Below, piece after piece: positions 1-31,401 of a stretch of DNA of 31,401 bases. Source of the stretch: a virus. The stretch lies in IMG/VR virus record IMGVR_UViG_3300046673_000201. The stretch is one strand, 5' to 3'. The number at the start of each line of letters is the position of its first letter. The stretch's first letter is position 1. The notes beneath the pieces were generated by a model that had not been told where the DNA came from, did not search any database, and saw only the letters and a program-made list of their open reading frames with translations. The translations under genes and the position numbers were made by a program.

Positions 1-127
1 CTGTGTCTTACCCAATAGCAATAAATAATGGAGGAACTGGACAGACTACAGCGCAATTAGCTATGAACGCATTAGCTGGCGCAGTCACCACTAAATACTA
101 TTTACGTGGAGATAACACCAATGTAAC
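1..127. repeat. Terminal direct repeat copy 1 (identical to 31275-31401); marks a circularly closed or terminally redundant contig with a unique length of 31274 bp
   Basis: Read directly: ctgtgtcttacccaatagcaataaataatggaggaactgg... at 1-127 recurs base for base at 31275-31401. Confidence 0.95.
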
Positions 128-2408: not shown

Positions 2409-2927
2409 ATGGCAGACTTTTTACCAGCGGTAACAATAGTTTTAAAACAAGAAGGTGGATGGTGTAATGATGCCGCAGATTCTGGTGGAGAAACAAATCT
2501 AGGTCTTACATGGACGGATCTTAATGCTGCCATCAAAGCGGGGATTGTTTCACGTGGAACAAAGATAAAAGATCTAACCCAATCTCAAGCAACGGATATT
2601 TATAAAGAACTTTACTGGGATGCGCACTTAAATCTAAATAATATAAACAATCAGTCAATTGCTAATAAACTATTTTCAGAAATTGTAAACCTAGGTCCTT
2701 ATCCGGCAGTTCTGATAATCCAAAAAGCAATTAATACCAACAATGGGAATATTCAAGAAGACGGAAAGTTCGGCCCGCACACACTTGACGCTATAAATAA
2801 TGTTGATAGCGATGCTTTATTAACTTCTTATAAGAAAGCATTATGCAGTTACTACCGAAGTATTGTTATAAGAAATCCTAAGGATGAGATCTTCCTAAAA
2901 GGTTGGCTCGCGCGTGCTAATAGTTAA
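2409..2927 (+). CDS. Endolysin, glycoside hydrolase family 108 with a C-terminal PG_binding_3-like region
   Basis: N-terminus FLPAVTIVLKQEGGWCNDAADSGGETNLGLT is the GH108 signature (L..EGGy.nd..D.GG.T..Gi). DGKFGPHTLDAIN is typical of the peptidoglycan-binding part. It is followed by membrane-protein genes. Confidence 0.85.
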   Translation: MADFLPAVTIVLKQEGGWCNDAADSGGETNLGLTWTDLNAAIKAGIVSRGTKIKDLTQSQATDIYKELYWDAHLNLNNINNQSIANKLFSEIVNLGPYPAVLIIQKAINTNNGNIQEDGKFGPHTLDAINNVDSDALLTSYKKALCSYYRSIVIRNPKDEIFLKGWLARANS

Positions 2928-2938
2928 TAGGCGACTAT

Positions 2939-3016
2939 GTGAAATATATACCAGGTGTATTAATTTTAATTCTTTGTGTATTAATGGGATACGCTTTATA
3001 TCAAACAATATTATGA
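2939..3016 (+). CDS. Possible 25-aa hydrophobic peptide (GTG start)
   Basis: (M)KYIPGVLILILCVLMGYALYQTIL. Its TGA overlaps the ATG at 3013 (ATGA). Weak AGG upstream. Not in the ORF track because it is too short. Confidence 0.3.
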   Translation: MKYIPGVLILILCVLMGYALYQTIL

Positions 3017-3324
3017 CAGAGCCAACGATAATAAACGCGAACGCAGATAGCACAACTATCGTGCAGAATATCCAGCAAGGAACTTTACAAGACTCTACTG
3101 GCAATCTATGTATAAAAAAAATATCAGGCATATCGTTTCTAGTTACTGGAGCTATATTAGGATTGATTTTATTCTGGCGTGGTTTGATTGATCCTGAGCA
3201 TAGTTACGAGGCATCAATGTCGGTGATGACTACATTCCTTGTCAGCGGCGGCAGTTTGATAGGATTAAGCTCAATTGATGGGCTTAAATCAATGTTTAGT
3301 AGAGGAAAACAGGGGGCAGTGTAA
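3013..3324 (+). CDS. Putative holin (two predicted TM helices)
   Basis: Directly downstream of the endolysin. ISGISFLVTGAILGLILFW and MSVMTTFLVSGGSLIGLSSI are hydrophobic segments, with a charged C-terminus. The start is uncertain (GTG 2914 or ATG 3013). Confidence 0.5.
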   Translation: MTEPTIINANADSTTIVQNIQQGTLQDSTGNLCIKKISGISFLVTGAILGLILFWRGLIDPEHSYEASMSVMTTFLVSGGSLIGLSSIDGLKSMFSRGKQGAV

Positions 3325-3464
3325 TGATATATATAATTATATGTGTATTATTAACAGTATTCATAGTTGTTATATTTAGTTTGCTACATATAAATAAATG
3401 TCGTGATTATTTTGATAATAAATATCCTATTAAAACCATTCCAAGGCCGGGATCAAAATTTTGA
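3324..3464 (+). CDS. Small single-TM protein (46 aa)
   Basis: ATG overlaps the upstream TAA. MIYIIICVLLTVFIVVIFSLLHINKCRDYFDNKYPIKTIPRPGSKF. Confidence 0.4.
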   Translation: MIYIIICVLLTVFIVVIFSLLHINKCRDYFDNKYPIKTIPRPGSKF

Positions 3465-3553
3465 AAAATTCATTTTTATTATTAGCATTTGCGTTTTTAT
3501 CTTTAACAATTGTTGTGGTATCTAGTTACGTAATATACTTAACATTTATTTAA
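3461..3553 (+). CDS. Possible small TM peptide (30 aa, TTG start)
   Basis: (M)KNSFLLLAFAFLSLTIVVVSSYVIYLTFI. Overlaps the preceding stop. Non-ATG start. Confidence 0.25.
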   Translation: MKNSFLLLAFAFLSLTIVVVSSYVIYLTFI

Positions 3554-3564
3554 AGGAGTAAAAT

Positions 3565-3777
3565 ATGATTATACTTATAATAACAGTATCTGTATTGATA
3601 GTAGCTGGGATATTTTTATATATTCTGATAAAAGATTCAGGTGAGAAAAAAGAACAACAAAAAGAAGTTGAGGCTGCTATAACAGAGGCTAGAAAAATTG
3701 CAGCAGTTGCAGCAGCAAGCGCCACTACTACCGACCAACAGGTGCAAGAAGACATGAAAAAATTCACGAGAGACTAA
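3565..3777 (+). CDS. Putative i-spanin (N-terminal TM anchor plus charged helical periplasmic part)
   Basis: AGGAG at 3554-3558. MIILIITVSVLIVAGIFLYILI followed by a KE-rich segment. It immediately precedes, and overlaps by 1 nt, a lipoprotein gene. Confidence 0.55.
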   Translation: MIILIITVSVLIVAGIFLYILIKDSGEKKEQQKEVEAAITEARKIAAVAAASATTTDQQVQEDMKKFTRD

Positions 3778-3971
3778 TGAGAAAATTAATACTATTGTTA
3801 TCTGCATTACTATTATGCGGATGTGCTGCAGATAAATTATATTTATCTGATATGTGCTTGCTAGCAAAACCAATTTCGATATCGAAGGCTGATAAAATTA
3901 CCCCGGTTACTTTGCGTGAAATATGGGAATTTAACGCCAAATATGAAGTTTTATGCGGTGTTAAGAAGTAG
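3777..3971 (+). CDS. Putative o-spanin (outer-membrane lipoprotein)
   Basis: MRKLILLLSALLLCGC: signal peptide with lipobox L-C-G-C. Small mature protein with extra Cys. Last gene of the lysis block. Confidence 0.65.
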   Translation: MRKLILLLSALLLCGCAADKLYLSDMCLLAKPISISKADKITPVTLREIWEFNAKYEVLCGVKK

Positions 3972-4227
3972 TTTTTTTGTTCCCTCTTCTTCTCGATACA
4001 TCTCCGGTACTTGTGCTCAGCATATCCTCTAGGGTTATTTCTATGTCAAACATTTTAGCGAACTCAACTAAGCGTTGCGTTACTTGATTGCTAGGTCTCG
4101 CTAAATCATTCTCAAATCTACTAATCCTGTTTTGTGATATCTCTAAAATGAGGGCTAGTTCTTGTTGGTTTATTTCTGCCTTCGATCTCAGATCTATTAT
4201 TTTTTGTGCTAAAGTATTTGTTGTCAT
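3961..4227 (-). CDS. XRE-family helix-turn-helix repressor (CI/Cro-like)
   Basis: LAQKIIDLRSKAEINQQELALILEISQNRISRFENDLARPS is a typical HTH_3 motif. It is divergent from the early operon. Confidence 0.8.
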   Translation of the reverse strand: MTTNTLAQKIIDLRSKAEINQQELALILEISQNRISRFENDLARPSNQVTQRLVEFAKMFDIEITLEDMLSTSTGDVSRRRGNKKTTS

Positions 4228-6295: not shown

Positions 6296-6499
6296 ATGAA
6301 AACATATACAATAGATACAGATTTTGATTCTGATCTCAGAGAATATATAGCTTTTTTTGACGGCTACGACGGTACGGTAGAAGAAGGTGTTGAATCAGAC
6401 CCTATTGGTCATGGCGATACAGAAACAGAGGCCATGTTGGATTTACTAGACCAATCATTTATGAGAGAGTGTTTAAAAAAAGATAAGGTGAAAAAATGA
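6296..6499 (+). CDS. Hypothetical acidic protein (67 aa); its 3' end lies in the duplicated region
   Basis: ORF with C-terminus ...ETEAMLDLLDQSFMRECLKKDKVKK. Confidence 0.45.
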   Translation: MKTYTIDTDFDSDLREYIAFFDGYDGTVEEGVESDPIGHGDTETEAMLDLLDQSFMRECLKKDKVKK

Positions 6500-6830
6500 A
6501 AAAAGAAACTGTAGAAAAAAGTATTGATGACGTAACAAATGATATGCGGCTAAAAACAGCAGAGGTTCGTGATGACATAGCAGAATTGATAACAAAAACA
6601 GAGGCCATGTTGGATTTACTAGACCAATCATTTATGAGAGGCAGAATTGATAACAAAAACAGAGGCCATGTTGGATTTACTAGACCAATCATTTATGAGA
6701 GAGTGTTTAAAAAAAGATAAGGTGAAAAAATGAAAAAAGAAACTGTAGAAAAAAGTATTGATGACGTAACAAATGATATGTGGCTAAAAACAGCAAAGGC
6801 TCGTGATGACATAGCAGAATTGATAACAAA
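6425..6830. repeat. Nested tandem duplication: a 43-bp block X occurs three times (6425-6467, 6598-6640, 6659-6701; a shared upstream base makes the last two copies 44 bp, from 6597 and 6658), a 129-bp block Y occurs twice (6468-6596, 6702-6830, three mismatches), and a 61-bp unit is tandemly doubled (6580-6640, 6641-6701)
   Basis: Direct reading of the sequence. The X copies are identical. The Y copies differ at 6547/6781, 6563/6797 and 6567/6801. Confidence 0.9.
6496..6720 (+). CDS. Chimeric ORF created by the duplication (N-terminus equals the 6730 ORF, middle equals the C-terminus of the 6296 ORF)
   Basis: MKKETVEKSIDDVTNDM(R/W)LKTA... is shared with 6730-6999, and TEAMLDLLDQSFMR is shared with 6296-6499. 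The tail is read out of frame through repeat copies. Confidence 0.35.
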   Translation: MKKETVEKSIDDVTNDMRLKTAEVRDDIAELITKTEAMLDLLDQSFMRGRIDNKNRGHVGFTRPIIYERVFKKR

Positions 6831-6999
6831 GAGTTATTTAACTCCTGTACAGGTATTGTCAGCATTGCTAATGAATGTATCAGCCTTATTAGAATATAAC
6901 GTAAAAGAGGAGTGTCTAGACGATAAGAATGATTATCTTGGTAAGCTTCTTATATTGTCTGGAAAGATCTTAGAGAAATCTGGAATTGTTAGGAAATAG
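6730..6999 (+). CDS. Hypothetical protein (89 aa)
   Basis: GGTGA RBS. ORF followed by an intrinsic terminator. Confidence 0.5.
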   Translation: MKKETVEKSIDDVTNDMWLKTAKARDDIAELITKSYLTPVQVLSALLMNVSALLEYNVKEECLDDKNDYLGKLLILSGKILEKSGIVRK

Positions 7000-7463: not shown

Positions 7464-8006
7464 TTATTCAGCATATTCCCATATGAAACCGCCAGCTGAT
7501 AGCAATCTACCTTTAGCGCATTTACATATATGACCTCTAAATATTTTAAGAGCACGCTCTGCACCTCTTATAGAGGCATAAGATCTTATATAAACATGAC
7601 CCTTAGTGTACTGTATTATTTTTTTGACGCGTTTATTATCTTTACCTATTCTACTTTTTGACCATATTAAATTAATATAAGAATTATCATAAATATCTTT
7701 ATTTATATGGAAAATGTGTTTTTTATTTCCTGGTTTAGGTAAGTATGTCATTGCGACTAGATTGCATACTTTGTAAGATTTCTTAATATTATTTTTACTT
7801 AAATTAAGGCTTGGACCTTGATTGATAACCATAGATTCCTTTAACCACTGACCGTAATGTCTATGTACACTAAAATTACTACCGCTGATCCATTCCTTTG
7901 GGTAACTCCACACTCTGCCATTTTTAGTAATGGCGTACAATCCCTCATACCCAGGAATATCTTTTATTTCTATACGCTTTGGCTTTACATTGCTTGTAAC
8001 TTTCAT
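7464..8006 (-). CDS. HNH homing endonuclease (NUMOD4 N-terminus, HNH_3 core, IENR1/NUMOD1-like C-terminal DNA-binding motif)
   Basis: [21 protein letters not shown] (NUMOD4), [16 protein letters not shown] (HNH_3-like), [36 protein letters not shown] (IENR1-like). Confidence 0.75.
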
Positions 8007-8221
8007 TTTATTTTATCCAAGTATTTTATTTGACTGTCTTCCTCTTCTTTTTCCTTTTTCTCTTTCTGAATTTTTATATATATCTCTTCTCTGTGTACGC
8101 TTATATCTATTGGAGCGTCTATACCTAGACGCGTTTGTCTACCATTTATTTCTAATATAGATATGCAAATATCATTACCAATTCTGATGCGTTCTCCGAC
8201 TCTTCTTGTAAGAATTAACAT
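8003..8221 (-). CDS. csrA: CsrA/RsmA-family RNA-binding translational regulator
   Basis: [52 protein letters not shown] aligns along its length with enterobacterial CsrA ([10 protein letters not shown]...[13 protein letters not shown]). There is an extra KE-rich tail. GGAGG RBS at 8229-8233 (minus strand). Its stop overlaps the HNH start. Confidence 0.9.
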
Positions 8222-8248
8222 TTAAAACCTCCGTAGGGCGAACCCCTA

Positions 8249-8311
8249 TTATTTTTTAATTAATATAATTACCATAAAACTTACGATAGCGAATATTAAA
8301 AATGATGCCAT
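8249..8311 (-). CDS. Hydrophobic micropeptide 1 (20 aa)
   Basis: MASFLIFAIVSFMVIILIKK. Member of a four-ORF tandem paralogous set upstream of csrA. Weak AAGG SD. Confidence 0.35.
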   Translation of the reverse strand: MASFLIFAIVSFMVIILIKK

Positions 8312-8327
8312 TTTATAGACCTTTATT

Positions 8328-8405
8328 TTATTCTTTATAAACTAATATAGCGGTTAAAATAGTAGTTAAAAGAGCGGCTATAACTAACAATAGAAATACT
8401 ATCAT
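8328..8405 (-). CDS. Hydrophobic micropeptide 2 (25 aa)
   Basis: MIVFLLLVIAALLTTILTAILVYKE. Its ATG overlaps the TGA of peptide 3 (ATGA). GGGAAG SD. Confidence 0.4.
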   Translation of the reverse strand: MIVFLLLVIAALLTTILTAILVYKE

Positions 8406-8473
8406 CGTTCTTCCCTACTAATCAAAAGACCTATTAACATACCACCAAGTACGAATAACAAAAATGTTATCAT
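8402..8473 (-). CDS. Hydrophobic micropeptide 3 (23 aa)
   Basis: MITFLLFVLGGMLIGLLISREER. GAGGG SD. Confidence 0.4.
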   Translation of the reverse strand: MITFLLFVLGGMLIGLLISREER

Positions 8474-8485
8474 TTTATAACCCTC

Positions 8486-8539
8486 TTAGTCTTTGAAAAG
8501 TAAAATACAAGCTATTAAAAATAATAATGACACTACCAT
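8486..8539 (-). CDS. Hydrophobic micropeptide 4 (17 aa)
   Basis: MVVSLLFLIACILLFKD. AGGAG SD 7 nt upstream. Confidence 0.4.
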   Translation of the reverse strand: MVVSLLFLIACILLFKD

Positions 8540-8570
8540 TTTATTCTCCTATCGATTTGTTATTAATTTA

Positions 8571-8599
8571 TTATAACTACTTATAGTAAGTAGCTATAA
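8571..8599. promoter_or_regulatory. 29-bp near-perfect palindrome (possible operator) upstream of the micropeptide-csrA operon
   Basis: ttataa-ctactta-tag-taagtag-ctataa. One mismatch, 3-nt centre. Confidence 0.35.
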
Positions 8600-8646
8600 T
8601 TGAATATAGCAGATAATTTATGAAAGTGTTATTTATTTTAAATTTG

Positions 8647-8757
8647 TTTACAAATATAAAAATTATTGTATTATATATCTATCTCTGTCCAAAAGATGAG
8701 ATCAAAAAGTAAAAGACAAGATTTGCCCGAATATTTAATTATATCCGGGCTTTTTTT
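8647..8757 (+). ncRNA. Candidate small RNA unit: promoter, roughly 75-nt transcript, intrinsic terminator
   Basis: TTTACA (8647-8652), TG-extended ATTATA (8667-8675), then hairpin gcccgaatat/atatccgggc (8725-8750) followed by T7 (8751-8757). No SD-led ORF inside. Confidence 0.35.
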
Positions 8758-8775
8758 GGCCTATCAAAAATATAA

Positions 8776-8803
8776 TTGACTAAATTTTAAATAATTATAC
8801 AAT
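8776..8803 (+). promoter_or_regulatory. Sigma70-type promoter facing the G-run element
   Basis: TTGACT (8776-8781), 16-bp spacer, TACAAT (8798-8803). Confidence 0.45.
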
Positions 8804-8808
8804 ACATG

Positions 8809-8937
8809 TTCTTTCTTTTTATTTTTTGTTTTTTTTGGACTTTCCTGAATTAACAGGGCAACTTCTCATAGGGGGGTTGGGGGGGATTTGGTAGTTTTTC
8901 TTCTTTTTTCTTTTTCCTTTCTGTTGTGACTTTCTTA
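8809..8937. other. Non-coding element: two long polypyrimidine tracts flanking a G-rich core with G6-TT-G7
   Basis: T/C tracts at 8809-8836 and 8895-8937. Core ggactttcctgaattaacagggcaacttctcataggggggttgggggggatttgg, with the G runs at 8871-8876 and 8879-8885. Compositionally aberrant in an AT-rich genome. Confidence 0.5.
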
Positions 8938-9147
8938 TAGATATTATTTAAATCATAAGAAATAAAAAATATAGATAAATTAAATTCCCTGAAGTTAGAT
9001 TTTTATAGATACTCACAAATTCTATGGATAAGTCTGTTGATATCTTTGACCGGATCTTATGTGATCTGTTGTTTATTTGCCTCTCCCTTAAATTGCGCAT
9101 AATTTAATCATATTCTCTACTTCATACACATAAGCACAAACTATAGC

Positions 9148-9175
9148 TTGATACTGTGCTTAACAGGTTTATAAT
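9148..9175 (+). promoter_or_regulatory. Strong sigma70-type promoter of the GG-leader peptide gene
   Basis: TTGATA (9148-9153), 16-bp spacer, TATAAT (9170-9175), 32 nt before the ATG at 9207. Confidence 0.55.
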
Positions 9176-9206
9176 ATAATTTCTATTTCTAAATTAGAGC
9201 AATGAA

Positions 9207-9548
9207 ATGAAAACATTGAGCAAGAAAGAGATTGAATGCGTAAACGGTGGTGATTTAAATTGTCCAAAGACAGCTCTGAGTACAGCAAGTGCAATTTGTG
9301 TTGGCATAGGATCAGCATTGCAGGCATGGGGACAATCAATTCATGTTGCTGCCCCTAATCTTGGAGATGCAACCCAGACAGCCAAGCAAAGGGTAATAGG
9401 TATGACTATTAGTATAGGTGGTTTAGTATTAAATTGTTTTAGTTTTGCTTTAGCTGCATTATCATCAGCAGAACAGAGTTGTGATTTTACTACCAATACT
9501 ACTGTAACAAACTCAACTATACCCACCAATTCTACAACCACTCCATGA
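9207..9548 (+). CDS. Double-glycine-leader (bacteriocin/microcin-type) secreted peptide precursor, 113 aa
   Basis: MKTLSKKEIECVNGG-DLN... fits the class II bacteriocin leader consensus. The predicted mature part has two Gly/Ala-rich hydrophobic helices, 4 Cys and a Thr/Asn-rich tail with NTT, NST, NST. Confidence 0.6.
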   Translation: MKTLSKKEIECVNGGDLNCPKTALSTASAICVGIGSALQAWGQSIHVAAPNLGDATQTAKQRVIGMTISIGGLVLNCFSFALAALSSAEQSCDFTTNTTVTNSTIPTNSTTTP

Positions 9549-9673: not shown

Positions 9674-9702
9674 TTGACACCTTCACCTCCCCAATGTATC
9701 AT
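9674..9702 (+). promoter_or_regulatory. Sigma70-type promoter of the 9735 ORF
   Basis: TTGACA (9674-9679), 17-bp spacer, TATCAT (9697-9702), preceded by TG. Confidence 0.5.
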
Positions 9703-9734: not shown

Positions 9735-9935
9735 ATGAAAGCATTGAACGGTAAAGAATTAGATTTCGTTAGCGATGTTCCTCCACAAGGATTAAGAAGA
9801 GCTGCTCATTTTGCACCACTTCAAGCCGCCCATGATGATAACCTTGATTTTAGATTCATGGTATTTGCACCGCAAAAAGAACTAGACCCAAATGCTCCTG
9901 ATTTTGAAAGTCAAATGATGAGCAAAGGTTGGTAA
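9735..9935 (+). CDS. Small hydrophilic acidic protein (66 aa) with a degenerate GG-type leader-like N-terminus
   Basis: MKALNGKELDFVSD parallels MKTLSKKEIECVNGG of the neighbouring ORF but ends SD rather than GG. AAGG SD. Confidence 0.45.
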   Translation: MKALNGKELDFVSDVPPQGLRRAAHFAPLQAAHDDNLDFRFMVFAPQKELDPNAPDFESQMMSKGW

Positions 9936-15670: not shown

Positions 15671-16492
15671 TTATTTTTTTACCCTACCAAAGAATTTTTT
15701 AGCTTCATCGCATAATGGAGCTTTTATTCTTTTGATTTCGTCTTTATATCTTATTGATTTACTATTTATTCTCTTCCCTTTAAATACTTTAAACTTCAGT
15801 GATACAACTTCCCTACCGGCTTTGTTCTCTTCATAATCAAATTGTATATCAGTTTTTTCATTTATTTCTTTTTTTGCTATATTTAATACTTCTTGTTTTA
15901 TATTTCCGTATAACCTATAGGTCTTCTTATCTTTTATTCCCATCATGTCTTTAAATCTATCGAGTGTAAAAGTTTTACCATATTTTTTATTACAAGCTAA
16001 AATCATATAAAGCCTTATTGCATACATTGATTCTAGTTTAAAAATATATGATATTTCCAGTTGGGTAAAATTAGATTTTAATGAAAAAATATGTGGTATT
16101 ATTTCAGGATGAAGCTTGAACTTAATCATGTGATCAATTTCACTGTAAGATATACTATAAAACCAATGTACCATAATCCATTCTTCTTTCTGTCTTATAT
16201 GTATTACTCTTTCTGATAGACTCAGGCATACCTTGTATATTTCTTTTGGCATATCTTTGATATCTAAATTCATATCTTTGATATATTCTTTACCTGAAAT
16301 AGATATTTCTTTTCCAAGATAAATACCGTCTTCAATATACTCACCGCCTTTAAACCAATCATCTTCGTGTGTTTGGCTTAATATCCATAACAACAATCTT
16401 TGCTCTTGAACGCTATATGGTCTTGCCTGTTTTGCTTCTGCTACTAAATTTGACACTACCGCCACCTTTATTACTTTTTTATCATTTTGCAT
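15671..16492 (-). CDS. Rep_3-family (RepB/pi/RepA-like) iteron-binding replication initiator
   Basis: NLVAEAKQARPYSVQEQRLLLWILSQ, FTQLEISYIFKLESMYAIRLYMIL and TLDRFKDMMGIKDKKTYRLYGNIKQEVLNIAKKEINEKTDIQFDYEENKAGREVVSLKFKV match the winged-helix Rep_3 pattern. Iterons lie immediately upstream. Confidence 0.85.
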   Translation of the reverse strand: MQNDKKVIKVAVVSNLVAEAKQARPYSVQEQRLLLWILSQTHEDDWFKGGEYIEDGIYLGKEISISGKEYIKDMNLDIKDMPKEIYKVCLSLSERVIHIRQKEEWIMVHWFYSISYSEIDHMIKFKLHPEIIPHIFSLKSNFTQLEISYIFKLESMYAIRLYMILACNKKYGKTFTLDRFKDMMGIKDKKTYRLYGNIKQEVLNIAKKEINEKTDIQFDYEENKAGREVVSLKFKVFKGKRINSKSIRYKDEIKRIKAPLCDEAKKFFGRVKK

Positions 16493-16566: not shown

Positions 16567-16596
16567 ATTATATGCTGATGTTGTCAAGCATATAAT
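16567..16596. promoter_or_regulatory. 10-bp inverted repeat in the rep promoter region (candidate autoregulatory operator)
   Basis: attatatgct (16567-16576) and agcatataat (16587-16596), separated by 10 bp, between the rep start and the iterons. Confidence 0.45.
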
Positions 16597-16597
16597 A

Positions 16598-16692
16598 AGC
16601 TGGGGCAAACCCAATAGTAGTTGGGGCAAACCCAATAGTTGGAGTAAAAAAGCTGGGGCAAACCCAATAGTAGTTGGGGCAAACCCAATAGT
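16598..16692. repeat. Replication-origin iterons: four 21-bp direct repeats ag(c/t)tggggcaaacccaatagt in two abutting pairs
   Basis: Copies at 16598-16618, 16619-16639, 16651-16671 and 16672-16692. Each pair is followed by tggag. An A/T-rich stretch follows at about 16797-16850, and an 8-bp inverted repeat aggtacca/tggtacct lies at 16696-16703 / 16742-16749. Confidence 0.85.
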
Positions 16693-17025
16693 TGGAGGTA
16701 CCACCCTTCGCTACAGACCGCATAAAACCTATATATTTTGATGGTACCTTAAAAGCCCAAAGCTTTCAAAGTAAAGATATAAAGTTTTCAAAGAGAAAAA
16801 TAGGAATTTTTTTATCAAATTTAAAAGCAAAAAAGCAAAAAAATGAGATTCTCTGATTTATGATTTACAAAACAAACACCATCCAAATAAATACCGGACC
16901 AATCATATTAAAAACGTCTTTACTTGACCGAGGGGTGGTAAGTATACTGCCGGATAGTTTTACGAGGGTTAAATATTAATCCGTCCGTATTTTTAACGGA
17001 CCAAAATCTATTGCAGAACATAATC

Positions 17026-30883: not shown

Positions 30884-31401
30884 ATGGCTAATACTAAATA
30901 TTTAAACCAAGTTAAACTTACGGCAACAGTAACGCCAAGTAATACTGCTATAGCGGCGGGTAATGATGGCCAGGTTGTAGCACAAAACTTACAAGGACAG
31001 ATAAATTATATTAATTCTACTAGTTCCGCCGCTTATGCAGCAGATATAGTTGGTGGTATAGCTAACGATATCCCATATCAAACAGCAGCTAATGTTACGT
31101 CATTTATAACCCCTGTAAACTCAGCTGTATTAATTAGTAGCGTTGCTGGCGTTCCATCGATGGCCACGACTTTACCGGCTGTTGGTATTGGAACATGCAC
31201 GGTAACCGATCCTAAAACTGCAGGATCTGCTAGTATAAATACTGCCTTATCTGATGTATATGGCGCTATTCCATCTGTGTCTTACCCAATAGCAATAAAT
31301 AATGGAGGAACTGGACAGACTACAGCGCAATTAGCTATGAACGCATTAGCTGGCGCAGTCACCACTAAATACTATTTACGTGGAGATAACACCAATGTAA
31401 C
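30884..31401 (+). CDS. Tail fibre protein 4, 5' portion; continues through the circular junction into 1-1706
   Basis: The ATG at 30884 overlaps the upstream TAA (TAATTATG region). Hand translation MANTKYLNQVKLTATV...DPKTAGSASINTALSDVYGAIPSVSYPIAINNGGTGQTT has no stop to the window end. Absent from the ORF track because it is open-ended. Confidence 0.8.
   Translation, partial: MANTKYLNQVKLTATVTPSNTAIAAGNDGQVVAQNLQGQINYINSTSSAAYAADIVGGIANDIPYQTAANVTSFITPVNSAVLISSVAGVPSMATTLPAVGIGTCTVTDPKTAGSASINTALSDVYGAIPSVSYPIAINNGGTGQTTAQLAMNALAGAVTTKYYLRGDNTNV
31275..31401. repeat. Terminal direct repeat copy 2 (identical to 1-127)
   Basis: Same 127 nt as the window start. The reading frame of the ORF starting at 30884 continues into frame 3 of the window start. 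Confidence 0.95.

What the first reader, a model, noticed from the sequence alone, without database searches (positions are those of the whole stretch)
9148..9548. Promoter-equipped phage gene encoding a double-glycine-leader bacteriocin/microcin-like peptide with no exporter or immunity gene
ORF 9207-9548 starts MKTLSKKEIECVNGG then DLN. This fits the class II bacteriocin / microcin / peptide-pheromone export leader position by position (M-K-x-L-S-x-x-E-[ILM]-x-x-[VI]-x-G-G). The predicted 98-aa mature part has two Gly/Ala-rich amphipathic or hydrophobic helices (ALSTASAICVGIGSALQAW and VIGMTISIGGLVLNCFSFALAALS) and four Cys. It also has a Thr/Asn-rich tail, TTNTTVTNSTIPTNSTTTP, with three N-x-S/T sequons. 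That tail loosely recalls the modified Ser-rich tails of class IIb microcins or glycosylated bacteriocins. The gene has its own near-consensus promoter (TTGATA-16-TATAAT) and sits in the accessory gap between the csrA operon and terS, which is the classic moron layout. The closed 31-kb genome has no C39-peptidase ABC exporter and no obvious immunity protein. The product would therefore have to use a host exporter. A virion-borne GG-leader toxin or signal peptide is uncommon. It could act in lysogen-mediated killing of competitors, superinfection exclusion or signalling.
Basis: partly seen in the sequence, partly recalled or inferred. Interest (0 to 1): 0.75.

Follow-up and report, generated by a model that had tools for sequence, protein, structure and literature searches.

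The report
Phage-borne double-glycine-leader microcin-like peptide
A small gene in an uncultured 31-kb phage encodes a peptide with the export tag that bacteria put on small antibacterial toxins, yet the phage carries no exporter or immunity gene, so the peptide may depend on host export machinery; its function is untested.

Summary
The ORF at 9207..9548 is real and encodes 113 aa. Its first 15 residues (MKTLSKKEIECVNGG) match the double-glycine (GG) export-leader consensus at every key position. It is not an orphan: exhaustive HMMER found about 18 relatives (29-52% identity). Every relative with usable genomic context lies on a related uncultured phage contig.

All 17 N-terminally complete family members keep hydrophobic residues at -4, -7 and -12, and 16 of 17 keep G-[GAS] at -2/-1. 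After the leader, AlphaFold predicts a helical hairpin rich in Gly, Ala, Ser and Thr and only moderately hydrophobic. A Cys just after the leader and a Cys after helix 2 are present together in 14 members, absent together in 2, and never found singly (Fisher p=0.008). That implies a disulfide, so both ends should sit in an oxidising compartment.

The circularly closed genome has no C39 peptidase, ABC exporter, membrane-fusion protein or conserved immunity gene, and it has a separate complete lysis cassette.

Best reading (confidence about 0.5): a new phage-restricted family of class IIa-microcin-like peptides that need a host peptidase-containing ABC transporter.

The "classic moron" layout and the class IIb or glycocin tail analogy are not supported. 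No curated GG-leader model matches. Host, export and activity remain untested.

The parts
9148..9175 (+). Sigma-70-like promoter candidate TTGATA-16 nt-TATAAT, about 32 nt upstream of the ATG
   Evidence: 11 of 12 consensus positions. Promoter-like sites are not enriched in this AT-rich region (15 found, 12.0 +/- 3.2 expected), so this is plausible but not demonstrated. It is not conserved in relatives, where the gene is operon-internal.
9207..9548 (+). Gene for the 113-aa GG-leader pre-peptide (P0001), stop codon included
   Evidence: ORF; 13 homologues by exhaustive phmmer, E 4e-16 to 4e-4; further members; the identical protein occurs on 16 contigs from JGI and Logan samples.
9207..9251 (+). 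Predicted 15-residue double-glycine leader MKTLSKKEIECVNGG. Key positions are M-15, L-12, S-11, E-8, I-7, V-4, G-2 and G-1. Predicted cleavage is after Gly15.
   Evidence: 14 of 17 N-terminally complete members match the strict pattern, and 16 of 17 have G-[GAS]; leave-one-out PSSM 17.2 bits against 4.6 for the next best start; short helix at residues 6-12. Cleavage itself is inferred.
9252..9545 (+). Predicted mature peptide, 98 aa, 9.9 kDa, pI 5.4
   Evidence: mass and pI. (47% Gly+Ala+Ser+Thr, net charge about 0).
9261..9263 (+). Cys19 codon, proposed disulfide partner of Cys92
   Evidence: present together with the C-terminal Cys in 14 members, absent together in 2 (P0005, P0009), never one without the other; Fisher p=0.008.
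9264..9350 (+). Helix 1 (residues 20-48), weakly hydrophobic and rich in Gly/Ala/Ser/Thr. It carries the conserved L-Q-A-x-G-Q-x-[LI]-H core and the invariant His46.
   Evidence: AlphaFold helix 20-48, block pLDDT 77-85. (KD19 0.7-1.5 in all full-length members; approximate insertion energy +3 to +8 kcal/mol). (His46 invariant).
9369..9470 (+). Helix 2 (residues 55-88), the more hydrophobic arm, with invariant Gly72 and the conserved Q61-R62 at its start
   Evidence: helix 55-88. (KD19 1.6-2.3). (conserved columns).
9480..9482 (+). Cys92 codon, proposed disulfide partner of Cys19 at the open end of the hairpin
9483..9545 (+). Disordered Thr/Asn/Ser/Pro-rich tail (residues 93-113) with three N-x-S/T sequons
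   Evidence: pLDDT below 50 for residues 95-112. (sequons at N97, N102, N108); about 9 of 17 members have a tail of similar composition, but length and sequence vary, and two members have no tail.

Best explanation
The gene encodes the precursor of a class IIa-microcin-like peptide. It belongs to a previously undescribed small protein family that is carried as cargo by one clade of uncultured phages (possibly phage-plasmids) of a diderm host.

Proposed mechanism:
1. The 113-aa pre-peptide is made in the infected or carrier cell.
2. Its 15-residue amphipathic leader docks in the C39 peptidase domain of a host-encoded peptidase-containing ABC transporter (PCAT). The key contacts would be hydrophobic residues at -4, -7, -12 and -15, Glu at -8, and Gly-Gly at -2/-1.
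3. The leader is cut after Gly15, and the 98-aa product leaves through the host type I secretion channel.
4. Outside the cytoplasm, Cys19 and Cys92 form a disulfide that staples the two helices into a hairpin.
5. The moderately hydrophobic hairpin then acts on a cell envelope, most likely the inner membrane of susceptible cells, as class IIa microcins do.

Shown here: the leader motif and its conservation; the predicted hairpin; the Cys co-variation; the restriction of the family to phage contigs; and the absence of an exporter or immunity gene on the phage.

Inferred: recognition by a host PCAT, cleavage, export, disulfide formation, and any antibacterial or exclusion activity.
For: - Leader. 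P0001 matches the published class II microcin signal regex, Motif 2 of PMC12219008. The strict position pattern holds in 14 of 17 N-terminally complete members. G-[GAS] at -2/-1 holds in 16 of 17, and hydrophobic residues at -4, -7 and -12 hold in all 17. In the background, only 3 non-family hits occur among 18,022 candidate starts. The leave-one-out PSSM gives 17.2 bits against 4.6 for the next best start. The one apparently leaderless member is truncated at a contig edge.
- Not a Sec or lipoprotein signal: the N-terminus has no hydrophobic core (sequence).
- Cys19/Cys92 co-variation: 14 members have both, 2 have neither, none has only one; p=0.008. The two double losses lie in different sub-branches of the family. 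This argues for a disulfide, and so for both ends of the hairpin being outside the cytoplasm.
- Helix 1 is below the usual transmembrane threshold in every member (KD19 0.7-1.5). By that criterion only helix 2 could span a membrane, which would put the two Cys on opposite sides. A secreted hairpin resolves the conflict.
- Size (9.9 kDa), composition (47% Gly+Ala+Ser+Thr) and leader length (15 aa) lie within the published class II microcin ranges.
- L015 carries two adjacent, overlapping GG-leader genes, an arrangement seen in multi-peptide bacteriocin loci.
- The phage has its own full lysis cassette: endolysin, two-TM holin candidate, i-spanin-like and o-spanin-like proteins. The peptide is therefore not needed for lysis, and the host is a diderm.
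- Precedents: SPbeta encodes sublancin (bioRxiv 10.1101/2020.10.01.322628), and the NapC GG-peptide has a homologue in Inoviridae phages (PMC11798529).
Against: - No curated GG-leader or bacteriocin model reaches significance for any of the 17 members scanned.
- There is no detectable homology to any known microcin or bacteriocin. The PDB sequence search, PHROGs and PADLOC are all empty. The MccE492 motif resemblance is not significant.
- Three of the five canonical components are missing from the phage: the immunity gene, the PCAT and the membrane-fusion protein.
- The host is unknown, so whether a suitable PCAT exists could not be checked.
- In most relatives the gene sits inside lytic-cycle operons. 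That is unusual for a lysogen-benefit weapon, and it leaves open how a producer without immunity survives, or whether it needs to.
- One member has G-Q at the predicted cleavage site.
- The structure model has only moderate confidence (pLDDT 67).
Confidence: 0.5

Rival explanations
1. An uncleaved small inner-membrane hairpin protein that acts in the infected cell itself, for example in superinfection exclusion, lysis timing, or membrane depolarisation during host takeover. On this reading the GG-like N-terminus is a conserved tail with some other role. An N-out/C-out topology would still allow the Cys19-Cys92 disulfide to form in the periplasm.
For: - Helix 2 is hydrophobic enough to span a membrane (KD19 1.6-2.3), and two-helix hairpins are common among small phage membrane proteins. 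The BFVD hits are generic hairpins and 'transmembrane proteins'.
- The conserved K/R at the loop-helix 2 boundary (Q61-R62) would suit a cytoplasmic loop.
- The phage has no exporter and no immunity gene.
- The gene is embedded in early or late lytic operons in relatives.
- Curated GG-leader models do not match.
Against: - Helix 1 is below the transmembrane threshold in all 17 members.
- The residues conserved in the N-terminal 15 aa are exactly the ones that define C39 recognition, which would be an unexplained coincidence.
- An N-out topology would require translocating a charged 20-residue N-terminus (K2, K6, K7, E8, E10, D16).
- The protein lacks the charged C-terminal tail typical of holins, and a complete lysis cassette exists elsewhere.
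Confidence: 0.25
2. An exported GG-leader peptide that is not a competitor-killing toxin. Instead it would be a self-directed or signalling effector, for example a Nap-like peptide that promotes envelope breakdown or autolysis of the producing population, or one that blocks a surface receptor used by phages. Processing would be by a host C39 peptidase, not necessarily one fused to an ABC transporter.
For: - Neisseria Nap peptides carry GG motifs, have an Inoviridae homologue, show no antimicrobial activity and promote autolysis (PMC11798529).
- The missing immunity gene and the gene's placement in lytic-cycle operons fit a function during infection better than lysogen warfare.
Against: - Nap peptides are short (16-36 aa) and cationic, whereas this product is 98 aa with pI 5.4.
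- Known GG-leader pheromones are also much shorter (own knowledge).
- No sequence similarity to Nap peptides or to any signal peptide family was found.
- The phage already has spanins for outer-membrane disruption.
Confidence: 0.12
3. A chance ORF, or a chance resemblance to a GG leader in a protein of unrelated function.
For: - The region is AT-rich and promoter-like sites are not enriched.
- No curated family matches.
- The broad published regexes have a noticeable background rate here: 40 hits among 18,022 candidate starts for Motif 2.
Against: - The protein is conserved at E down to 4e-16 across divergent phages whose terminase and portal are only 53-56% identical.
- The leader positions are conserved in all complete members.
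- The PSSM separates this start from every other start in the window by more than 12 bits.
Confidence: 0.03

Closest known systems
Class IIa microcins of Gram-negative bacteria (MccV/colicin V, MccL, MccN; definition in PMC10233263 and PMC12219008)
   Same: - A 15-aa N-terminal leader ending in GG, with the same spacing of conserved residues. Compare MccV MRTLTLNELDSVSGG, which three papers print, with MKTLSKKEIECVNGG here.
- A mature product of about 10 kDa.
- Gly/Ala/Ser-rich, moderately hydrophobic and unmodified apart from a likely single disulfide. MccV and EN43 also carry one disulfide.
- A diderm producer.
   Different: - No sequence homology in the core.
- Encoded on a phage rather than a plasmid or chromosome.
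- No adjacent transmembrane immunity gene, and no PCAT or MFP in cis.
- The disulfide links the two ends of the peptide rather than forming a C-terminal loop (the MccV disulfide position is from my own knowledge).
- Activity is untested.
Sublancin 168 (a glycocin) on Bacillus prophage SPbeta (bioRxiv 10.1101/2020.10.01.322628)
   Same: - A phage-encoded peptide bacteriocin with a GG-type leader (the leader type is from my own knowledge).
- A disulfide-stapled helix-loop-helix fold (own knowledge).
- Shows that phages can arm their hosts with such peptides.
   Different: - SPbeta carries the whole cluster: the transporter SunT, immunity protein SunI, glycosyltransferase SunS and the BdbA/B oxidoreductases. 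This phage carries only the precursor gene.
- The host is Gram-positive.
- The sublancin core is 37 aa with two nested disulfides (own knowledge), against 98 aa with one conserved Cys pair here.
Neisseria autolysis peptides NapA-C (PMC11798529)
   Same: - GG-motif peptides in a Gram-negative bacterium that are linked to phages (NapC is 69% identical to an Inoviridae protein).
- They show that GG peptides need not be competitor-killing toxins.
   Different: - Nap peptides are 16-36 aa and cationic.
- Their island encodes its own C39 peptidase (NapP), export channel (NapF) and immunity-like protein (NapI).
- No sequence similarity to this family.
Bacteroidetocins (as described in PMC12219008 and PMC10233263)
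   Same: - A 15-aa GG leader and a total length below 100 aa, in a Gram-negative producer.
- Reported to lack an immunity protein.
   Different: - They are encoded next to a PCAT that is required for production.
- The host phylum is Bacteroidota. The AGGAG-type ribosome-binding sites in this window argue against a Bacteroidota host.
- No sequence similarity was detected.
Class II (two-TM) phage holins
   Same: A small phage protein with two helices, one of them hydrophobic.
   Different: - Not adjacent to the endolysin.
- No charged C-terminal tail.
- Helix 1 is too polar to span a membrane.
- A separate two-TM holin candidate lies directly after the endolysin.

Membership tests
Class II microcin (PMC10233263) | Pre-peptide with an N-terminal 15-18 aa signal ending in GG or GA | tested here: met
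   The 15-aa leader ends in GG. It matches Motif 2 of PMC12219008 and the strict position pattern, and it is conserved across the family. Curated HMMs give no hit. Actual cleavage was not tested.
Class II microcin (PMC10233263) | Mature peptide of about 5-10 kDa, unmodified or disulfide-bonded only (class IIa) | tested here: met
   98 aa and 9.9 kDa. One co-varying Cys pair. No modification enzymes on the genome.
Class II microcin (PMC10233263) | Adjacent small immunity gene, typically a predicted inner-membrane protein | tested here: not met
   No conserved TM-containing ORF lies next to the gene in the window, L010, L012, L015, L041 or L043. The downstream 66-aa ORF is soluble and acidic.
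Class II microcin (PMC10233263) | C39-peptidase ABC transporter (PCAT) in the cluster | tested here: not met
   No Peptidase_C39 or ABC domain in any of 42 ORFs or in the junction-spanning protein of the closed genome. None in the relatives' contigs either. Presence in the host genome cannot be tested because the host is unknown.
Class II microcin (PMC10233263) | Membrane-fusion protein (HlyD family) and a TolC-type outer-membrane factor | tested here: not met
   No HlyD-family hit on the phage. Host components cannot be tested.
Class II microcin (PMC10233263) | Antibacterial activity against related bacteria | not testable with these tools
   Requires expression, secretion and inhibition assays.
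Class IIb (siderophore) microcin | Gly/Ser-rich C-terminal motif that accepts the siderophore | tested here: not met
   The tail is Thr/Asn/Pro-rich (TTNTTVTNSTIPTNSTTTP) and ends in Pro. It varies in the family and is absent from some members.
Glycocin (sublancin / glycocin F type) | Dedicated glycosyltransferase in the cluster, and two nested disulfides across a helix-loop-helix | tested here: not met
   No glycosyltransferase domain on the genome. Only one Cys pair co-varies. Cys31 and Cys77 are not conserved and do not co-vary.
NCBIfam TIGR01847 (bacteriocin-type signal sequence) / TIGR03949 / Pfam PF10439 | Score above the curated cut-off | tested here: not met
   Only TIGR03949 is listed, and only for P0001: E=2, 8.2 bits against a cut-off of 21.5. 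The other 16 members scanned hit none of these models.
Phage holin | Strongly hydrophobic TM segment(s), charged C-terminal tail, linkage to the endolysin | tested here: not met
   The gene lies about 6 kb from the lysis cassette, which has its own holin candidate (3013..3324).
Moron (independently transcribed phage accessory gene) | Own promoter and own terminator, inserted between conserved modules | tested here: inconclusive
   A promoter-like site is present, but there is no terminator. In relatives the gene is operon-internal, at three different genome positions. The variable position does fit mobile cargo.

The most novel reading that the evidence does not exclude
A clade of phages of diderm bacteria carries only the precursor gene of a GG-leader peptide and parasitises the host's own peptidase-containing ABC exporter during infection or carriage. 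The exported product would be a disulfide-stapled hairpin that acts outside the producing cell. It might kill or block uninfected neighbours, or occupy a surface receptor. This would be a phage strategy of 'borrowing' a bacterial type I secretion system, with no exporter and no immunity gene of its own.
Probability: 0.2. Interest if true: 0.8.

Novelty: new variant of a known kind. Interest (0 to 1): 0.52.

Why it matters
Class II microcins were recently shown to be far more widespread than thought (PMC12219008). They are still described as chromosomal or plasmid clusters that carry their own exporter and immunity gene.

A family found only on phages, reduced to the precursor gene, would show that phages can exploit host type I secretion with a 15-residue tag. 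It would also add a new scaffold, an end-to-end disulfide-stapled helical hairpin, to the microcin repertoire. And it would offer a handle for linking uncultured phages to hosts through exporter compatibility.

If the rival membrane-protein reading is right instead, this family is a warning for motif-based microcin mining, which would flag it as a microcin.

Tried and rejected
1. Curated models. Pfam, NCBIfam, PHROGs and PADLOC were run on P0001, and Pfam and NCBIfam on all 17 members. Nothing was significant.
2. Word-indexed homology search. It returned only the protein itself. The divergent L015 paralogue also returned only itself.
3. Annotated collections. tblastn against GenBank phages and PLSDB plasmids found no match.
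4. Pattern scans for family members. GTDB genomes, IMG/VR and JGI metagenomes gave none. Several alignments were too divergent for the tool to use.
5. Fold comparison. Foldseek against PDB and BFVD returned only generic helical hairpins, with E above 0.1. The PDB sequence search returned nothing meaningful.
6. Resemblance to microcin E492. I noticed by eye that the conserved ALQAFGQxLH core resembles ALQTVGQGL in MccE492 (sequence verified in PMC11274894). hhalign gives a probability of 9.7% and P=0.0033, and 11 of 2000 shuffles score at least as high. Because I picked it from about ten microcins, I reject it as evidence of homology.
7. The downstream 66-aa ORF (9735..9935, MKALNGKELDFVSDV...) looked like a GG-less pseudo-leader. 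The leader PSSM ranks it only 6th of 721 starts, at 2.8 bits, so I reject it as chance. It is nevertheless conserved ahead of terS in L015.
8. Immunity gene hunt. All ORFs of at least 25 aa within 900 nt of the gene were checked in six loci, and no conserved TM candidate was found.
9. Holin hypothesis. Rejected, because a complete lysis cassette lies elsewhere.
10. 'Leaderless' member P0011. This is a contig-edge truncation.
11. Host identification. terL relatives in GTDB are MAG contigs binned inconsistently to Pseudomonadota and Sphingobacteriia. Rep3 is 31% identical to Piscirickettsia plasmid initiators. CsrA is about 60% identical, over part of its length, to Pseudomonas and Legionella plasmid copies. 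The portal is 22% identical to Vibrio phage portals. There are no tRNAs. The host is not resolved beyond 'diderm that uses Shine-Dalgarno sites, probably an AT-rich gammaproteobacterium'.
12. Within-lineage selection analysis. All nine copies are identical across the gene and its flanks, so there is no signal.
13. Rfam on the window. No hits.
Full report
**1. The observation.**

ATG 9207 is the first start codon in its open frame.

The sequence features hold up:
- Cys residues lie at 11, 19, 31, 77 and 92.
- Three N-x-S/T sequons lie in the tail.
- Removing 15 residues would leave a 98-aa, 9.9-kDa, pI 5.4 product.

TTGATA-16-TATAAT is present at 9148..9175 and matches 11 of 12 consensus positions. 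However, the same scan finds 15 promoter-like sites in 2.2 kb where shuffles give 12.0 +/- 3.2. The site is therefore well placed but not statistically remarkable.

No terminator follows the gene. The scan finds none, and the downstream 81 nt fold no better than shuffles (z=0.77).

The window has a 127-nt exact terminal repeat, so it is a closed circle of about 31.27 kb. The same element, with an identical copy of this gene, occurs on 16 contigs from JGI and Logan samples.

**2. It is a real, conserved gene family confined to phages.**

The word-indexed search found only the protein itself. The exhaustive phmmer search of 1.84 billion representatives found 13 homologues (E 4e-16 to 4e-4, 68-118 aa). 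A profile search added four more. Identities to P0001 are 29-52%.

Wherever context could be retrieved, the contig is phage-like and related to this window. These contigs carry a GH108 endolysin, CsrA, ERF, a primase, terS/terL and a P22-type portal. terL and portal are 53% and 56% identical between the window and L015.

The gene occupies at least three different positions:
- before a 64-66-aa ORF and terS (window, L015);
- 12-18 nt behind a 146-153-aa gene of the recombination/replication module (L010, L041, L043, L045);
- after a ParE toxin gene (the P0014 contig).

No member was found in GenBank phages, PLSDB plasmids, GTDB representative genomes, IMG/VR or the JGI contig collection. L015 also carries a second, divergent GG-leader paralogue, METLSKQEISCVGGA..., which overlaps the start of the main copy.

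**3. The leader.**

All 17 N-terminally complete family members (16 from alignment A2 plus the L015 paralogue) keep hydrophobic residues at -4, -7 and -12. Sixteen of the 17 keep G-[G/A/S] at -2/-1, and 14 of the 17 keep an acidic or Gln residue at -8, which gives 14 of 17 full matches to the strict pattern. The fragment P0013, which is not in A2, also matches. The single apparently leaderless member is cut off by its contig edge.

P0001 matches Motif 2 of the published microcin screen, <M...[KEQI]x[IL]x9G[GAS] (PMC12219008). It also lines up residue for residue with the MccV signal MRTLTLNELDSVSGG, which the literature prints.

Two background tests show the match is not chance:
- The strict pattern hits 10 of 18,022 candidate starts in 462 kb, and 7 of those are family members.
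- A PSSM built from the other members, excluding the GG residues, scores P0001 at 17.2 bits. The next best of 721 starts in the window scores 4.6 bits.

The residues under selection are the ones known to define recognition by C39 peptidase domains (established knowledge of ComA/PCAT1-type transporters). In contrast, no curated HMM recognises the leader (TIGR01847, TIGR03949, PF10439). I judge it weak evidence for a 15-residue motif.

**4. The core.**

AlphaFold, run with the 17-sequence alignment, gives a short helix inside the leader (residues 6-12), two long helices (20-48 and 55-88) that form a hairpin, and a disordered tail. Mean pLDDT is 67, and 75-85 in the helices.

Hydrophobicity across the family:
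- Helix 2 is borderline transmembrane (KD19 1.6-2.3).
- Helix 1 is below the usual threshold in all 17 members (KD19 0.7-1.5; approximate insertion energy +3 to +8 kcal/mol).
- The mature part is 47% Gly+Ala+Ser+Thr and near neutral, with no charged C-terminus.

His46 and Gly72 are invariant.

The most informative feature is co-variation. Cys19, just after the leader, and Cys92, just after helix 2, are both present in 14 sequences and both absent in 2 (P0005 and P0009, which lie in different sub-branches). They are never present singly (Fisher p=0.008). In the model they sit together at the open end of the hairpin. A disulfide implies that both ends are outside the cytoplasm. With only one credible transmembrane helix, this fits a secreted hairpin better than an integral membrane protein.

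The Thr/Asn/Pro-rich tail recurs in composition in about 9 of 17 members. It varies in length and sequence, and it is not Gly/Ser-rich.

**5. What is missing.**

Pfam scans of 42 ORFs, plus the junction-spanning 762-aa protein, find no Peptidase_C39, ABC, HlyD or glycosyltransferase domain.

No conserved transmembrane ORF flanks the gene in six loci.

The phage has its own lysis cassette:
- GH108 endolysin at 2409..2927;
- a two-TM holin candidate at 3013..3324;
- a 46-aa single-TM protein;
- an i-spanin-like protein at 3565..3777;
- a lipobox o-spanin-like protein at 3777..3971.

The peptide is therefore not needed for lysis, and the host is a diderm. Most genes have AGGAG-type ribosome-binding sites.

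Host clues all point loosely to Gammaproteobacteria but do not identify the host:
- Rep3 is 31% identical to Piscirickettsia plasmid initiators.
- CsrA is about 60% identical to Pseudomonas and Legionella plasmid copies.
- terL is about 31% and the portal about 22% identical to those of gammaproteobacterial phages.

Whether the host has a PCAT could not be tested.

**6. Mechanism and rivals.**

Best explanation (about 0.5): this is a class IIa-microcin-like pre-peptide. A host PCAT recognises and removes its leader, and the product is exported through the host type I system. The product is then stapled by a Cys19-Cys92 disulfide and is active on a cell envelope.

Main rival (about 0.25): an uncleaved N-out/C-out inner-membrane hairpin that acts in cis, for example in superinfection exclusion. 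This explains the missing exporter and immunity gene and the operon-internal position. It does not explain the polar helix 1 or why precisely the C39-recognition positions are conserved.

Second rival (about 0.12): an exported but non-bactericidal effector of the Nap type (PMC11798529).

Chance is essentially excluded by the family alignment.

The 'moron' picture is weakened. There is no terminator, and in most relatives the gene is co-oriented with, and tightly packed into, lytic-cycle operons. Its changing position among related genomes does fit mobile cargo.

**7. Comparison with what is known.**

Against the published five-part definition of class II microcin systems (PMC10233263), the pre-peptide features are met: leader, size, and the class IIa type with a disulfide. 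The immunity gene, PCAT and MFP are not encoded in cis.

Phage-encoded bacteriocins are known, but SPbeta's sublancin locus brings its own transporter, immunity gene and modification enzymes. A local resemblance to MccE492 (ALQTVGQGL) is not significant.

I therefore file this as something that works like a class IIa microcin precursor, and as a new variant of that kind rather than a demonstrated member. It is a new, phage-restricted sequence family reduced to the precursor gene.

**8. Verdict.**

- Interest is moderate (0.52). The leader conservation and the Cys co-variation make a coherent and experimentally easy hypothesis. Against that, the family is rare, the host is unknown, and nothing about export or activity has been shown.

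Noticed in passing
window 15671..16492 (-) and 16594..16697: A Rep3-family plasmid replication initiator (Rep3_N and Rep3_C) sits next to four copies of the iteron GGGGCAAACCCAATAG, at 16602, 16623, 16655 and 16676. Together with an HTH repressor-like gene (3961..4227, -) and the absence of an integrase domain, this suggests a phage-plasmid lifestyle.
   Followed up: partly
window 7464..8221 (-): The phage encodes a CsrA homologue (8003..8221) that overlaps by 4 nt with a downstream HNH/NUMOD homing-endonuclease-like gene (7464..8006). CsrA is also present in the relative L010. The nearest annotated copies are on Pseudomonas and Legionella plasmids and in Vibrio and Pseudomonas phages.
   Followed up: partly
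window 8222..9206: A 985-bp gene-poor stretch of 26% GC (genome average 36%) lies between csrA and the peptide gene. It holds two imperfect 33-nt direct repeats at 8290 and 8452, each containing the palindrome AAAATGNTNNCATTTT. There are no Rfam hits. It could be a regulatory, pac or second origin region; it is unexplained.
   Followed up: partly
window 9735..9935 (+) and L015 889..1083: A 64-66-aa acidic soluble ORF ending in ...M[GS]KGW is conserved immediately upstream of the terS-like gene in both lineages. Its N-terminus (MKALNGKELDFVSDV) looks leader-like by eye but is not significant by PSSM (rank 6 of 721). A strong promoter-like site, TTGACA-17-TATCAT at 9674..9702, precedes it.
   Followed up: yes
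L015 385..621 (+): A divergent 78-aa paralogue with a GG-type leader (METLSKQEISCVGGA) lies directly upstream of the L015 family member and overlaps its start. It lacks the Cys pair and has a charged loop and C-terminus. No other homologues exist in the 5.8-billion-protein collection.
   Followed up: yes
window 6496..6720 and 6730..6999 (+): Two adjacent ORFs (74 and 89 aa) begin with the same 25-nt upstream sequence, including the ribosome-binding site. Their N-termini are nearly identical (MKKETVEKSIDDVTNDM[R/W]LK). This looks like a recent local tandem duplication. L002 lacks one copy.
   Followed up: no
window 2409..3971 (+): A complete lysis cassette in an unusual order, with the endolysin first: GH108/PG_binding_3 endolysin, a two-TM holin candidate (103 aa), a 46-aa single-TM protein, an i-spanin-like protein (70 aa, N-terminal TM) and an o-spanin-like lipoprotein (64 aa, LLLCGC lipobox).
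   Followed up: partly
window 1..127 and 31275..31401: A 127-nt exact terminal direct repeat, the assembly signature of a circular or terminally redundant genome. A 762-aa protein with no Pfam domains spans the junction.
   Followed up: yes
contig of P0014 (JGI 3300075153, no DNA available): In this relative the family gene lies between a ParE-toxin gene and a 114-aa ORF only 16 nt downstream. That ORF could not be inspected and might be a candidate partner or immunity protein.
   Followed up: no
L016-L019 (GTDB MAG contigs): The closest terminase relatives (42-48% identity) are whole 28-39 kb contigs binned into a Pseudomonadota MAG and into Mucilaginibacter, Pedobacter and Bacteroidetes MAGs. 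The inconsistent taxonomy suggests mis-binned phage contigs. None of them carries the peptide family.
   Followed up: partly
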